Of a stretch of 15,595 nucleotides of DNA, positions 6,001-12,000 are shown in pieces (the first letter of the stretch is position 1; every line of letters begins with the position of its first letter). Source of the stretch: Bdellovibrionales bacterium (GTDB lineage: Bacteria; Bdellovibrionota; Bdellovibrionia; Bdellovibrionales; UBA1609); NCBI GenBank assembly GCA_050246815.1, contig JBFWVI010000062.1:1-15595 (forward strand), written 5' to 3'. A program made the position numbers.

Positions 6001-9000
6001 AAACACAACGTTTCAGGTGGCGTCCCGCCTGCTCGGCTACCGCACGTCCGGCGCGAGTTGAACCCGTTAAAGAGACACCTTTCACCCTCGGATCGGCGAT
6101 CACTTTGGCTGATGCTTCGACTTGGATCGGAAAATCTTGATAAACGCCTTCAGGAAAACCCGCAGCCAAAAAACACTGCGCCAAGGCGGCCGCAGATCCC
6201 CAGGTGTTCGGAGCGTGCTTCATGAGGGCCGTGTTACCCGCCAACAGTGTGGGTGTAGCGAAGCGGATAACCTGCCAAAGGGGAAAATTCCAAGGCATAA
6301 TTGCAAAAATAACTCCCAGTGGCTGATGGCTGACATAAACCTTGGGGTCCTGTTCTAAAAGTATTTCGTCACCCAACCAGCCTTCAGGCTTGCCGGCATA
6401 ATACTCGCAAGCAAAAGCACATTTTTCGACTTCGGCCAAAGCCTCGGTGATGGGTTTTCCCATCTCTTGAGTCACCAAAAACGCCAATGTCTCTTTCTTA
6501 TCGCGCAACACTTCAGATAGTCGACGAAAGCAGTAGGTCTTTTGTTTCCAGGTGGTTCGGCGCCAATCGAAGAATGCGCGCTGGGCCATATAAAGACCCT
6601 CTTCGATCTGTTGGTCATTTAGGGAATTATAGGACTGCAAAACTTGGCCCGTAACTGGATTATGAGTTTGAATCACGTGATACCCCCACTCCTGAAACCC
6701 AGGCCGTCAAAACCGACCTCATGGCTTGTTCGGTCCCCATCGCTAATTCTTTCACAGCTGCTCGCGGAACAAAAACCGTATAACCACCAAATTGATAGCT
6801 CATAGGAAGATAAACCGCCATGCGGTCCTCTGTTTCAATCGGAAACGGAAGGCCTTTCAGGTTTTCACGTGTCACCAAACCAACCACGTCAAAATCAGTG
6901 CCCGGTAGTCGCACCATCACCACTCGACTGTTTTGCCGATCGCGATTGGGACTTAAGTAAGACGTAAAGTCCTTAATCGCTTGATACACACTGCGAACCA
7001 AAGGCAAAATCTGAAACGGTCCTTCAACCCAACGAAACACCACTTTGGCGAAAGGTTTGTCCAGTAGGTTGCCGATGCTATAAATGAACAGCACCCCTAC
7101 AAAAATTCCAAGACCTGGTATGTAGATCGAGTCGGGCAGAAAAAAAAGCAACCCCAATCGCGCGATGGCCTCGCTCCAGGTCAAAAGCCAAACCAGAATA
7201 TAAACTGAAATCAAAATCGGCAGCAAAGCGAAAAAGCCACGCAAAAATTTACCAGTGAAGTGCTTCAACATAGACGCGCAACTTAGCACGCTTTGGCATC
7301 AAAGCAAAATTTGGACAGGCAAAGAACGTAAATTGTATTGATTCGCCATGCTATAGCCATAAGCGCCCGTGTCTAAAACCGCAAGCCAGTCCCCGCTTCG
7401 GGGCGCCGGTAAAGAGCGCTGACGCCCCAGTACATCGGTCGACTCGCAAATAGGTCCGACAATGTCGCAAATCAAAGTCCGCCCCTTGGATTCAAAAAGC
7501 GGCACAATACGATGCTCAGCCTGATAAAGAGCCGGCCGCATCAAATGATTCATTCCAGAATTCAAAATCACAAAATTGCGATGTGGAGTTTGTTTAACAT
7601 ATTCGATTTGCGTCAACAACACACCGGAACGGGCGACCAAAAATCGACCGGGCTCCACCAGCAAATCGCAATCAAGCCCCTTTAATGCCACCTCCACATT
7701 AGCTGCGTAGCTCTGCAAGCGGTTTAGATCCCCTTGCGCATCGGTCCGGGTGTAGTCGATACCTAGTCCACCGCCGATATCCAGACTTTGAAGAGGCCAC
7801 CCCTCTTTTCTAAGATCTTCAAAAACGCGACGAATCAACCTGACCGCTTCAATCACCGTAGTTGTGTTTAAAATCTGCGAGCCCACATGCATGGCGAGTC
7901 CATAAAATTTGAGATGCTCTTCGTTGGTCCGTAAAATTGCCACGGCTTCGCGCAGATGCTCCAAGTTTAAACCAAATTTGTTTTCTCGATGTCCCGTGGT
8001 GATGTGATGATGGGTATCCGGGCGCACATCGGGATTTAATCGCAATCCCACACGCACTCGGGCTTTTTGCCCCCGACTGAGCTCGGCCAATCGTTCAAGT
8101 TCCGGCAAACTTTCGATATTGATCTGTCCGATTCCACAATCCAGGGCCCGCTTAAGCTCGGCCGCGGATTTTCCGACGCCTGAAAAAACGATCGCTTCAG
8201 CGGCTATTCCGGCTTCCAAAGCACGCTCGAGCTCGCCGCCAGAAACCACATCCGCCCCAATTTTTTGCCGAGCCATAATTTGTAGAAGAGGTAAAAAGGG
8301 GTTGGCCTTCATGGCAAAATGAATTTTAACAGGGCGCGCAAAAGCTTTTTTATACCAGTCAATTCGATTTAGAACATCATCCGAGCTGTAAACATAGACA
8401 GCCTCGCCATGTCCTTTGACGACATCACTTAACGGCAGAAATCGCTCATTTCGCCGAATCCCCAACACTCCATTTGCGTATTCATACGCCATCGTCTAAA
8501 GCGTACTCGACAAGGATACCCAATGAAAACGTTTATCTTTGCCCACACCACCATGAATCGCGCCATAGTGGCCTATCGTTTTGAGAACACGGGGCCTGAA
8601 ACTTTGATTTTAGGCGGTGTGCACGGAAATGAGTCCGAGGGGGTCACCCTTGCGCTCGCAATTTTAGATCGAGCCTTGCAAACCTTTGATCTAAAATTAA
8701 ATCTTACCGTAGTTCCTATGCTCAATTTAGATGGCGTGTTGGCTGGCACCCGCTTAAACGGCCGCGGCGTGGATCTGAATCGTAATCTGCCCACCCGCGA
8801 TTGGACGACTGAGCTTTTAAATCCGCGCTATCCACCAGGCCCCCATGCAGCTAGTGAACCTGAAAATCAGGCACTTATACATTGGCTGGACCTACATCCG
8901 CCACAAATGATCTTTAGTCTTCACTCATGGAACCCCGTGCTCAATGTCAACGGTGATTGCCTGGCCGAAGCCGAGACCCTGCATCGTTGGCTGGGCTACC

Positions 9001-12000
9001 CTATTACACGCGAGATTGGCTATTCAACGCCCGGCTGTCTTGGAACTTATTGCGGCTTAGAGCGCAATATGCCAACTTTAACCTATGAGGTCGAACGAGG
9101 ACTGCCTGCAAGCCAAATCGTTCGCATTCACACCCCTGCTCTATGGGAAGCACTGAAAATTAGCGAAGGAAGGTTGGGCCAGCGTGGAAATTAAAACCAC
9201 TATCGACAAAAGAAAGCTCTACACACTCATCGAGCAAGCCTACGACATTGCCCAAAAGACCAACCGCATCGATGGATTAGAAGAAAAGCATCATGACGCC
9301 GTTGACGAATCGATTGGCGCAATGGATCGCGGCCACCTTCGTTCAGCCGAAAAAATTGACGGCAAGTGGCAAGTTCACGAATGGGTTAAAAAAGCAATTT
9401 TGCTCTATTTTCGCATTCGCCATCCTGAGGTTTTAGATTTGAATGGTCTTTCCTTCGTTGACAAAATCCCCGTGAAACAATGGAAAGGAAACGAAGCCGT
9501 ACGCGTAGTGCCACCAGCAGTGGTGCGTCGAGGCGCGTACATTGGCAATAACTGTGTCTTGATGCCAAGTTATGTGAATATTGGCGCCTATGTGGGCGAT
9601 GGCACTATGGTGGACACTTGGGCCACTGTTGGTTCCTGTGCACAGATCGGTGTGGGCGTGCATCTGTCGGGCGGCGTTGGCATCGGTGGCGTCTTAGAGC
9701 CCCTGCAGGCCTCACCCGTGATCGTCGAAGACCATGCTTTCGTCGGCAGTCGATGCGTAATCGTCGAGGGTGTTTTGATTGAAGAAGGTGCCGTGATTGG
9801 AGCCGGCGTCATCTTGACCGCCTCGACCAAAATTGTCGATGTAACCGGTGAAAAGCCGGTGGCCTCAAAAGGCCGAATTCCCAAAAATTCGGTGGTGATT
9901 CCTGGTATGACCTCGAAAGAATTCAAGGCCGGTACAGCCGGGGTCCCCTGCGCCTTGATCATCGGGCAGCGCACCGACGGCACCGATAAAAAAACTTCGC
10001 TCAATCAAGTTTTAAGAGATTTCGACGTTTCGGTTTAGTTGCTGGTTCCACGCAAAGCCTCAGCAGAATTGCTGCGTGTGCTCATGTGAGCCGGAAACCA
10101 CGACCCAACCACTGCAATCACTGCAGCCACGCTCAAAATCACCACGATCATCGTACCATTGACCTGAGCCGGAATAGTGCGATCGTAATAAATCGACGGA
10201 AGCAAATTCATAGGAAAGCGGTCTAACACCCAACAAATCGAAACACCTAATATCACACCGGCACCAACTCCCAAAGATGACAGCCACACTCCCACCATGG
10301 CGAACACCTGTCGCGTACGTCGGGCATTCAACCCCATGGCCATAAGGATACCAATCTCTTTGCGTTTTTGGGTTACCAACAAAATCAGCACAGTTAAAAT
10401 CGAAAAACTAGTAATCAAAGCACTGAGGCCCAAAAAAATTGTCATCGACAACTTTTCCATCTTGAGAGCAAAAAACATGGCTGAATTTCTTTCGGGCCAG
10501 GTCTCAACCGTGAATTGAGCTGCTTTTAGTTTTTGTGCTGCCTCTTCGTAAGCATCGCCATTTTTTAGACGAATCTCGACCCCAAGCTCTTTACTTGCCG
10601 TATTCTTGAGCGCCTTAAGTGAATTTTCGCGGTCATAGATCAGCAACTTACCGTCAACATCCTGTAACTGACTGTAAAAGAAGTCCTTCACCGTAACCGT
10701 CTTCATTGGCGGGGCTTCATCGGCTGGCAATAATAAGACCTCAGGAGCGATCAGAACCAGCTTGTCTCCCGCGACCAGCTGCAGGCCCTCGCCAAGTTCA
10801 CTGCCAATGACGACTTCGTCCTCGGTCAACTCCCAGGGGTCAACTTCTATTTCTTGTGACCCACCATCATGAAGCGTGACCGAGTCGCCGCGCTCAGGAT
10901 GCCGTTTCAACCTTTCTGCCAAATCCTTGATTGCTTGAGAAGCCAAACCTTTGGCGACAGCGCCGGCAAAAAAACCGTCCACTGTTTTTAGAATCACATC
11001 CTGCGAAGCAAAACCCGTCACTCCGGTTAACTCATCAGCTAAAATCTCACGAATTTTTTTCTCTGAATGCTGAATCCAAACTTCTTCTTTGACGCCACTG
11101 GGTGCGTGCACCACCAAATGAGGTTCGGCGCGTAAATGCCGATCACGAATAACTTGATTAAAGCCATTCATCACCCCAACCACGACGATCAATGCGGCCA
11201 CTCCGATCATAATGCCGACCATGGACATCCAGGCTACCGTACGGATCAACGCACCAGAACGGCGAGAAAGCAGATAATGGGTAAAGATTTTCCAACTTAG
11301 CATGGCGCCCAGAGTAGTACAGGCAGGCTATTTTAGGCAACTTGGGAGACCTTATTTAGGCGCTTTACGGACTATTTGGCACTGCTGCTCGCGGGCTGCC
11401 GCTCTTCTTGGCGCACCTCTTCGACTTTGCCACGCAGCAAGAACGATTTTTGCAACGCCTTGAGCAACACCACAGTTTCATTTAAAGCTTCCACAGCTTT
11501 TAAACTGGTTTTGGGCAACTCGGGCGCAATTGTCGCGATGGCCGGAGCAAGCTTTTGCATTTCAGCAGTTAGAATATTCAAGTTGTTCACCATTTGTCCC
11601 AACTGTCGCCCCATATCAGGAGACTCTTTCACCATGGCCGGGATCACTTGCCCCAAATCAGTGCTGATTTGGGTCAGATTGCTAAGTAAGAGTTCTAGGC
11701 GCTTTTGTTTGGTCACAGCATCAGTGATTTTGACCATGCCTATGGCCATTTCATTCACATTGGACATCAAGGGTGCCATACGATCGAACATTTTCACCAA
11801 AGATTTGGTACGTTCAGGGTCAGCAAAGGCTTCGCCTAAAGCCATCAAGCTGGCGCTCAGACGATCCAGTGTACCCATAAAAGGCCCCATCTTTTTGCCG
11901 CTCACCACATCCATGATATCAAAACTCTCTTTTAGGGCGATTGGCTGACCAGGCTCTAACTCGGGCTCAGTTTCATTGCCCACGCTGATCTCAAGAACCT

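What a model noticed while it worked through the whole genome (the two positions that open the first line are those of the whole stretch)
8523..10038. An M14 (MpaA-like) peptidase stands in for DapE in Bdellovibrionota diaminopimelate synthesis
The genome has dapD, dapF and lysA but no dapE. A 223-aa M14 zinc peptidase without a signal peptide (g02667) overlaps dapD and is the likely non-orthologous succinyl-DAP desuccinylase. Its relative MpaA cuts the chemically similar gamma-Glu-DAP bond.
Evidence so far: DapE (TIGR01246) was found in 0 of 61 order and 0 of 61 phylum genomes, while the control rang in E. coli. In the same 61 phylum genomes the ortholog is in 19 and DapD in 28. All 19 have DapD, 18 next to it, and none of the 33 without DapD has it. 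In the family-f20 DapD genomes that lack it (9), dapB-dapA-dapD-lysA is followed, in the two loci read (L508, L509), by a different AstE/AspA-like gene, a parallel recruitment. The table shows the pair near in 271 of 383 order genomes. G004 and G032 have the pair but no AstA operon. Paper searches 189 and 195: nothing relevant.
(Added by a program. Inside this text positions count along the whole contig: contig position 1 is position 1 of the stretch shown here. "Call 12" and the like, gene names such as g00115 and contig names such as C1 are that model's own, and its searches are not shown. The text may have been shortened before it was handed on; [...] marks where a part breaks off. The agent that wrote the report below was given it as the finding of a first reader that could run no searches.)

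Follow-up and report, generated by a model that had tools for sequence, protein, structure and literature searches.

The report
MpaA-like peptidase replacing missing DapE
Many predatory bacteria and some spirochaetes lack the usual enzyme for one step in making the cell-wall building block diaminopimelate, and a zinc peptidase related to a cell-wall recycling enzyme most likely does that step instead, which a simple complementation test could settle.

Summary
The window has a 223-aa M14 zinc amidase without a signal peptide (8523-9194), overlapping a succinyl-type dapD and divergent from lysA. The 99%-complete genome has dapA, dapB, dapF and lysA but no DapE, DapL or Ddh by family search; its only DapE-like M20 has lost the EE motif. 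Among 151 phylum genomes none has DapE, and 51 of 52 with this DapD type carry the M14 directly upstream. A DapL-like gene is in 52 of 77 DapD-negative but 4 of 74 DapD-positive genomes. In a spirochaete class the M14 and DapD co-occur, mostly unlinked (both 31, one only 2, neither 58, of 91). In published B. bacteriovorus Tn-seq the syntenic gene has no fitness value, like dapA/B/D/F, while two MpaA-labelled paralogs do; polarity on dapD and noisy data limit this. Against: no activity shown, weak tree support for a single clade, nine DapD genomes with no linked deacylase, and two family members in genomes without DapD. Best reading (0.8): a non-orthologous succinyl-diaminopimelate desuccinylase on the M14 fold. 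Not found in print in my searches.

The parts
8523..9194 (+). M14 zinc amidase, MpaA-like, 223 aa, cytoplasmic by hydropathy; proposed succinyl-L,L-diaminopimelate desuccinylase
   Evidence: model pLDDT 95.6, closest folds 4AXV and 5HXD
8622..8633 (+). Zinc ligands His34 and Glu37 (HxxE motif)
   Evidence: His34 48/48, Glu37 47/48 in dapD-linked copies; align with E. coli MpaA H49, E52
8922..8924 (+). Third zinc ligand His134
   Evidence: 48/48; aligns with MpaA H157
9087..9098 (+). Catalytic Glu189 and family-specific Arg192
   Evidence: Glu189 48/48; Arg192 47/48 in dapD-linked and 34/34 in spirochaete copies, mostly Glu/Asp in paralogs; the role of Arg192 is inferred
9184..10038 (+). dapD, tetrahydrodipicolinate N-succinyltransferase, overlapping the M14 gene by 11 bp
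   Evidence: PDB succinyltransferases 238-277 bits vs acetyltransferase 89 bits
7299..8492 (-). lysA, diaminopimelate decarboxylase, divergent from the M14 gene
   Evidence: TIGR01048 408.6 vs cut-off 297.9
8493..8522 (.). 30-bp gap between the divergent lysA and M14 starts
   Evidence: no sigma-70-like consensus found in 8300-10200
10035..11303 (-). Convergent LolC/E-like permease that closes the two-gene unit (flank, not part of the pathway)
   Evidence: FtsX and MacB_PCD domains

Best explanation
The M14 protein is the N-succinyl-L,L-diaminopimelate desuccinylase of the succinylase route in these bacteria. DapD succinylates tetrahydrodipicolinate, an unidentified aminotransferase does the DapC step, and this enzyme hydrolyses the succinyl amide to give L,L-DAP for DapF, peptidoglycan and LysA. 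It would work as a mononuclear zinc carboxypeptidase-type amidase: His34, Glu37 and His134 hold the zinc, Glu189 activates water, Arg77 and Asn86-Arg87 hold the scissile carbonyl and the free alpha-carboxylate of DAP, as MpaA does for gamma-D-Glu-DAP; family-specific residues (Asn143, Thr175, Arg181, Thr185, Arg192) would retune the site from an amino-acyl to a succinyl group. Shown: fold, intact metal and catalytic residues, linkage, distribution. Inferred: substrate, residue roles (carboxypeptidase A analogies recalled), direction of descent from an MpaA-like gene.
For: Gap: DapE over cut-off in 0 of 151 phylum genomes, best 84.8 bits vs 361.8, control rang over cut-off in 2 of 14; DapL TIGR03542 0 of 151, Ddh 0 of 151; TIGR01891 amidohydrolase type 0 of 5 incl. 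G000; DapF in 47 of 51 pair genomes. Linkage: 51 of 52 genomes with DapD above 250 bits have their best M14 hit directly upstream, same strand, in 11 families, 24 of 24 in the own order; full lysA-dapA-dapB-M14-dapD operons in G141 and L207. Exclusion: DapL-like NF006756 at E<=1e-90 in 52 of 77 DapD-negative, 4 of 74 DapD-positive genomes; lone pair carriers in otherwise DapL-using families (G141, G046) lack it. Second phylum: of 91 genomes in the class of a Leptospiraceae-labelled record, both genes 31, one only 2, neither 58, adjacent in 1 of the 31; DapE 0 of 91. Residues: N143, T175, T185, R192 in 34 of 34 spirochaete rows, a set not used to define them. Paralog on C22 scores higher against E. 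coli MpaA (84.3 vs 57.1 bits). Tn-seq in B. bacteriovorus 109J (PMC6561027, Data Set S2): the gene between dapD and lysA, EP01_RS04890, is ND in all four conditions like dapA, dapB, dapD, dapF, murE, murF; paralogs RS02285 and RS02650 have W 1.0-1.8.
Against: No activity data. Tn-seq: RS04890 is not in the authors' essential list S3 (nor is dapF), ND is not defined in the passages read, 9 of 55 rows in the part read are ND, the gene lies 12 bp upstream of essential dapD in close relatives so polarity could explain it, and likely essential genes such as asd, aspRS and thrRS have values. Tree support for one DapD-associated clade is uneven: FastTree 94, quick IQ-TREE 88 with three rows unresolved, but 73.7/54 in a 44-row bootstrap tree. 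Nine DapD genomes have no linked deacylase: G065 and 8 of 22 with the second DapD type, so an unlinked enzyme can fill the step there. Family members in genomes where DapD was not found: L242 (full signature), L231 (R192 lost), G219. Four pair genomes also have a DapL-like gene and four lack DapF. Kin are not independent; the spirochaete split may be one or two events.
Confidence: 0.8

Rival explanations
1. It is a plain MpaA that cuts gamma-D-Glu-meso-DAP in recycled murein tripeptide (own or prey) and sits by dapD for co-regulation; another enzyme does the DapE step.
For: Closest sequence and fold matches are MpaA; databases name the family MpaA or murein peptide amidase A; 14 of 17 genomes of family f7 with the pair were aligned and no second copy of the C22 type was seen among their listed hits (the list was cut at 150 matches); salvage of DAP suits predators.
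Against: Below the MpaA cut-off; a more MpaA-like paralog exists in G000; no YcjG epimerase hit in G000; presence tracks DapD even unlinked, which recycling does not predict; the syntenic gene is ND in Tn-seq while mpl and both paralogs have values.
Confidence: 0.07
2. The ArgE/DapE-like M20 in the ast-like operon (or another divergent M20) is the real DapE and the M14 is an accessory.
For: It is the only DapE-fold protein in G000; RefSeq labelled the 109J copy succinyl-diaminopimelate desuccinylase; its EE motif is intact in family f2; a divergent M20 replaces DapE in Bacteroidota (PMC13759103); G140 has two full-length M20s.
Against: In G000 and five relatives the EE motif reads GAQ/GAH/AGG; found in only 25 of 51 pair genomes and 36 of its 61 carriers lack DapD; G032 has no PF01546 match, G056 and G012 only short partial ones; the 109J gene has fitness values 0.5-1.2 (weak, noisy); the genome lacks AstE, which this M20 more plausibly replaces.
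Confidence: 0.06
3. The M14 belongs to the DapD route but does a side job, such as clearing wrongly succinylated amino acids or another acyl-DAP by-product, while the main desuccinylation is done by several promiscuous hydrolases.
For: Would also give co-occurrence with DapD; nine DapD genomes manage without a linked deacylase; several unlinked M14 and AstE/AspA-like proteins exist.
Against: No other candidate tracks DapD; DapE-using organisms are not known (recalled) to need such a partner; a core step explains the strict retention more simply.
Confidence: 0.07

Closest known systems
MpaA, murein tripeptide amidase (NF007897; PDB 4AXV, 5HXD)
   Same: M14 fold (TM-score 0.76-0.80), similar length, same zinc and catalytic residues, cuts an acyl-DAP amide (PMC6403190 passage).
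   Different: 24-27% identity, below cut-off; lies with dapD/lysA rather than ycjG/mppA; own conserved residues (N143, T175, T185, R192); tracks DapD.
DapE (TIGR01246, M20 family)
   Same: Proposed reaction and place in the pathway.
   Different: Unrelated fold: single-domain mononuclear M14 rather than dimeric dinuclear M20 (recalled); no DapE family match.
Alternative DapE of Bacteroidota (Echvi_1427, CA265_RS23900; PMC13759103)
   Same: Same logic (DapD present, DapE missing, essential substitute), shown there by complementing E. coli AT978 dapE9.
   Different: That is an amidohydrolase related to dipeptidases and N-acetyl-DAP deacetylase; the paper's main text has 0 occurrences of Bdellovibrio, M14 or aspartoacylase.
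AstE succinylglutamate desuccinylase / aspartoacylase (PF24827)
   Same: Same fold clan, already known to remove N-succinyl or N-acetyl groups from amino acids; weak hit to residues 24-95.
   Different: No phmmer hit with E. coli AstE in G000; lacks the longer AstE architecture; context is lysine/DAP, not arginine catabolism.

Membership tests
Peptidase M14 | PF00246 above gathering score | tested here: met
   47.3 vs 21.6 bits
Peptidase M14 | HxxE...H zinc site, catalytic Glu, Asn-Arg carboxylate motif | tested here: met
   H34, E37, H134, E189, N86-R87
Peptidase M14 | Carboxypeptidase A-like fold | tested here: met
   model pLDDT 95.6; MpaA and carboxypeptidases T/A/B at E 1e-12 to 5e-16
MpaA (NF007897) | Equivalog score above cut-off | tested here: not met
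   87.5 vs 157 bits; the C22 paralog scores 105, also below
MpaA (NF007897) | Context with ycjG epimerase and mppA as in E. coli | tested here: not met
   E. coli context; no YcjG hit in G000, MppA-like gene on another contig
MpaA (NF007897) | Hydrolyses gamma-D-Glu-meso-DAP | not testable with these tools
   needs an assay
DapE (TIGR01246) | M20 fold and family score | tested here: not met
   no M20 or DapE match for the protein
DapE (function, EC 3.5.1.18) | Hydrolyses N-succinyl-L,L-DAP; complements dapE | not testable with these tools
   needs complementation or assay
DapE (function, EC 3.5.1.18) | Occurs with succinyl-type DapD and DapF where DapE, DapL, Ddh are missing | tested here: met
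   exceptions listed in the report
DapE (function, EC 3.5.1.18) | Essential without added DAP | tested here: inconclusive
   ND in Data Set S2 like other dap genes, but not in list S3 and possibly polar
AstE/AspA | Full-length match to AstE | tested here: not met
   PF24827 covers profile 2-70 of 192; no phmmer hit with E. coli AstE

The most novel reading that the evidence does not exclude
A peptidoglycan-recycling amidase was duplicated and turned into a biosynthetic enzyme for its own substrate's DAP; with dapD it forms a two-gene unit that has moved between Bdellovibrionota families and into spirochaetes, displacing the DapL route; and in Bacteriovoracaceae-like genomes a second, AstE/AspA-like M14-fold protein was recruited independently for the same step, so DapE has been replaced twice by the carboxypeptidase fold in one phylum.
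Probability: 0.4. Interest if true: 0.78.

Novelty: new variant of a known kind. Interest (0 to 1): 0.68.

Why it matters
If true, it closes a gap in an essential cell-wall and lysine pathway of Bdellovibrio, a model predator studied as a living antibiotic, and of related predators and some spirochaetes. It would be a DapE activity on a fold other than M20 (none found in my searches), correct two database labels (this gene as MpaA, the ast-operon M20 as DapE), show a catabolic amidase turned anabolic, and imply that DapE-directed inhibitors would spare these predators. A one-step complementation test with an existing E. coli dapE strain decides it.

Tried and rejected
DapL bypass in G000: TIGR03542 best 71 bits (an aspartate transaminase and HisC), no NF006756 match at 1e-90. 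Ddh bypass: none. Acetylase route: DapD is succinyl-type, no TIGR01891 match. ArgE role: G000 has ArgJ, so no ArgE gap. AstE role for the M14: 26 of 51 pair genomes had no match to the ast-operon M20 at 1e-30; AstA itself was not searched across genomes. Hidden M20 in G000: six-frame phmmer with E. coli DapE and ArgE found only the C18 protein. Promoter scan gave nothing. The careful tree did not finish. The overall ND rate of Data Set S2 could not be counted. ESM Atlas gave only generic M14/MpaA clusters. The region fetched from G245 (L286) did not contain its M14 gene. Earlier-finding look-ups returned nothing.
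Full report
Observation. The window holds lysA (7299-8492, minus), a 223-aa ORF (8523-9194, plus) starting 30 bp away, and dapD (9184-10038, plus) overlapping it by 11 bp, closed by a convergent LolC/E-like gene. The ORF is Peptidase_M14 (47.3 bits, cut-off 21.6), nearest to MpaA but under that equivalog's cut-off (87.5 vs 157); its best PDB relatives are MpaA 4AXV and 5HXD by sequence and by fold (model pLDDT 95.6, TM-score 0.76-0.80, 24-27% identity). The zinc ligands H34, E37, H134, the catalytic E189, R77 and N86-R87 are present. There is no hydrophobic N-terminus. 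DapD is of the succinyl type (NF008808 over cut-off, TIGR00965 307 vs 375, acetyltransferase 95 vs 232; PDB 238-277 vs 89 bits).

The gap in this genome. G000 is 99.1% complete. It has DapA and DapB, DapF and LysA, but no DapE (23.2 vs 361.8 bits), no DapL, no Ddh and no TIGR01891 amidohydrolase. PF01546 gives two hits, an M28-like multidomain protein and a 448-aa ArgE/DapE-like protein between astC-like and astA genes; six-frame phmmer with E. coli DapE and ArgE finds only the latter. That protein reads GAQ where DapE has E133-E134; the motif is also lost in five relatives and intact in family f2. The genome has further M14 proteins: one beside glmU-glmS on C22, which scores higher against E. 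coli MpaA than the window's (84.3 vs 57.1 bits), and others on C71, C30 and C119.

Phylum survey (151 genomes including G000, 124 of good quality). DapE over cut-off 0 of 151, best 84.8 bits; TIGR03542 0 of 151 at 1e-60; Ddh 0 of 151 at 1e-15; DapF 139 of 151; DapD 74 of 151. DapD scores fall in two groups with a gap between 270 and 195 bits; I set the cut at 250 after seeing this. Of 52 in the upper group, 51 have their best M14 hit directly upstream on the same strand; G065 (93% complete) is the exception. Of 22 in the lower group, 0 do. The pair is in 24 of 24 genomes of the own order and in families f7, f9, f12, f14, f16, f22, f24. G141 and the named record L207 have lysA-dapA-dapB-M14-dapD in one run; G046 has M14-dapD-aminotransferase. 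A DapL-like gene (NF006756, E<=1e-90; 19 over cut-off) is in 52 of 77 DapD-negative and 4 of 74 DapD-positive genomes; all four of the latter carry the pair and score below cut-off. The ast-operon M20 does not follow DapD: 25 of 51 pair genomes, and 36 of its 61 carriers lack DapD.

Ortholog or paralog. Fourteen DapD-negative genomes have an M14 at 110 bits or more; 13 were aligned and group with the C22-type paralogs; four of the eight such loci read also have a long gene and a response-regulator-like gene downstream, as on C22. In 48 of the 51 dapD-linked copies aligned, D93, N143, T175 are invariant and T185, R192, H203 are 47 of 48, R181 43 of 48; in 34 unlinked copies position 192 is mostly Glu. 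These residues were defined on the linked set, so the useful test is the spirochaete set, where D93, N143, T175, T185, R192 are 34 of 34 (two rows duplicate others; H203 is not kept). Tree support for one clade is uneven: FastTree 94, quick IQ-TREE 88 with G103, G119, G119p unresolved, 73.7 SH-aLRT/54 bootstrap on 44 rows. The long row G000c30 was left out. G103 and G119, which have the second DapD type, keep an M14 at the ancestral-looking site next to an ABC-F gene but without R192.

Second phylum. Three records titled Leptospiraceae or Leptospirales have the adjacent pair (L232, L233, L238). Those and two more (L222, L230) have DapD (5 of 5), DapE over cut-off 0 of 5, TIGR03542 over cut-off 0 of 5. 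Among 91 genomes of the class of L232's genome, the M14 is in 32, DapD in 32, both in 31, M14 only in G219 (hit at the end of a 2.6-kb contig), DapD only in G210, neither in 58; the genes are adjacent in 1 of the 31; DapE 0 of 91 at 1e-22. Co-occurrence without linkage argues against hitch-hiking, but no completeness or kinship is given for these genomes, the split may reflect one or two events, and DapL was not searched across them.

Published genetics. PMC6561027 (main-text passages; Data Set S3 parts 1 and 3 of 3, part 2 by search; Data Set S2 parts 1 and 18 of 68 plus row searches) is a Tn-seq study of host-independent B. bacteriovorus 109J. The gene order there (RidA-like, ABC genes, lipoprotein release gene, dapD RS04885, 'murein peptide amidase A' RS04890, lysA RS04895, murI, guaB-like) matches the window. 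RS04890 is ND in all four conditions, as are dapA, dapB, dapD, dapF, aspartate kinase, murE and murF; the two other 'murein peptide amidase A' genes (RS02285, next to glmU, and RS02650) have W 1.3-1.8 and 1.0-1.3, mpl 1.7-2.4, lysA 1.5-1.8; the gene labelled succinyl-diaminopimelate desuccinylase (RS12430, between acetylornithine aminotransferase and astA) has W 0.5-1.2. Limits: ND is not defined in the passages seen; RS04890 and dapF are not in list S3 while dapA, dapB, dapD are; 9 of 55 rows of part 18 are ND; astA is ND too; asd, aspRS and thrRS have values; and the gene ends 12 bp before dapD in close relatives, so insertions may be polar. The data fit the reading and do not prove it.

Results against. 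Besides the limits above: G065 and 8 of the 22 second-type DapD genomes (G034, G050, G074, G103, G118, G128, G138, G150) show no deacylase in their dap operon; five of them searched have unlinked AstE/AspA-like or M14 genes and G128 an M20, so something unlinked serves there. L242 has the full signature in a 5.1-Mb genome with no DapD hit, and L231 (R192 lost) lies in a 0.6-Mb genome with none. Four pair genomes lack a DapF hit, among them G032, which weakens G032 as the clean 'no M20' case; G056 (100% complete, DapF present, only short partial PF01546 matches) is the better one.

Parallel recruitment. In 14 of the 22 second-type genomes an AstE/AspA-like gene (PF24827) lies within 6 kb downstream of dapD on the same strand, usually after lysC-dapB-dapA-dapD-lysA, and it was found in none of the other 137 genomes at 1e-20. 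This fits a second recruitment but is less tight.

Mechanism. Shown: intact M14 site and DapD-tied distribution. From established chemistry: MpaA cuts the gamma-D-Glu-meso-DAP bond (PMC6403190, passage); succinyl-L,L-DAP is also an acyl amide on a DAP centre with a free alpha-carboxylate, its acyl group one carbon shorter and without the amino substituent. Inferred: zinc-bound water and E189 hydrolyse the amide, N86-R87 anchors the DAP carboxylate, and the Glu-to-Arg change at 192 suits a succinyl carboxylate; I could not place R192 in the model, and the primary MpaA papers were not held.

Prior knowledge. PMC13759103 (abstract, outline, passages covering most of section 9, sections 11 and 13 in full; supplements not read) shows a different, amidohydrolase-type DapE substitute in Bacteroidota and has no occurrence of Bdellovibrio, M14 or aspartoacylase in its main text. 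PMC7311316 (passages) lists DapE gaps only in Bacteroidota. Listings from searches showed no paper proposing an M14 DapE; the library lacks most subscription papers, and unread supplements could hold such a prediction. Sources name the family MpaA, murein peptide amidase A, M14 carboxypeptidase, DUF2817 or AstE/AspA-family, none DapE.

Verdict. It works most likely as a DapE (0.8) but is not a member of the DapE family; it is an M14 peptidase, MpaA-like but failing the MpaA membership tests that could be run. Non-orthologous DapE replacement is a known kind; doing it with this fold appears new. Interest 0.68.

Noticed in passing
G000:C18:3653-4996 (L071); L072, L076, L078, L079, L083: The ArgE/DapE-like M20 of the astC-M20-astA-astD operon has lost its EE motif in G000 and five relatives but keeps it in family f2; G000 has no AstB or AstE hit, so this looks like an ast variant with an M20 in place of AstE, decaying or repurposed in some lineages.
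   Followed up: partly
L057:8066-9202 and 13 other genomes; L290:7285-8166: AstE/AspA-like gene tied to the lysC-dapB-dapA-dapD-lysA operon in 14 of 22 second-type DapD genomes; G019 has a different AstE/AspA-like gene right after its M14-dapD pair.
   Followed up: partly
L106-L112, L060, L059: Nine DapD genomes with no DapE, DapL, Ddh hit or linked deacylase: a remaining pathway gap.
   Followed up: partly
G000:C22:13134-13664 (L064): MpaA-like paralog divergent from glmU-glmS and upstream of a sensor kinase and response regulator; a similar downstream context in DapD-negative families.
   Followed up: partly
L065:6335-7534; L044:1411-2610: An aspartate-transaminase-like gene follows M14-dapD in G046 (37% identical to one in G000); a candidate for the unassigned DapC step. 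An aspartate aminotransferase is also in the 109J essential list.
   Followed up: partly
L220, L222, L226, L228, L230, L279: In several spirochaete records the M14 gene follows a FolD gene instead of preceding dapD.
   Followed up: no
phylum survey, families f17, f19, f23, f25: These genomes mostly have DapF but no DapD, DapL-like or Ddh hit at the cut-offs used; their route to L,L-DAP is unclear.
   Followed up: no
window 208-993 (+): C-terminal part of a probable serine recombinase (zinc-ribbon and coiled coil, judged by eye) at the contig start, suggesting an integrated element ends here.
   Followed up: no
window 3826-5292 (+): 488-aa protein with heme-binding CxxCH motifs and a RoxA-like cytochrome c match.
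   Followed up: no
window 10035-13880 (-): LolC/E-like permease next to an MlaD, ABC ATPase and MlaE-like cluster; the order is kept in B. bacteriovorus 109J, where the permease is ND in Tn-seq.
   Followed up: no
L242 (G245), L231 (G244): Family members nested among f7 sequences in genomes without a DapD hit; possible transfers or misbinned contigs.
   Followed up: partly
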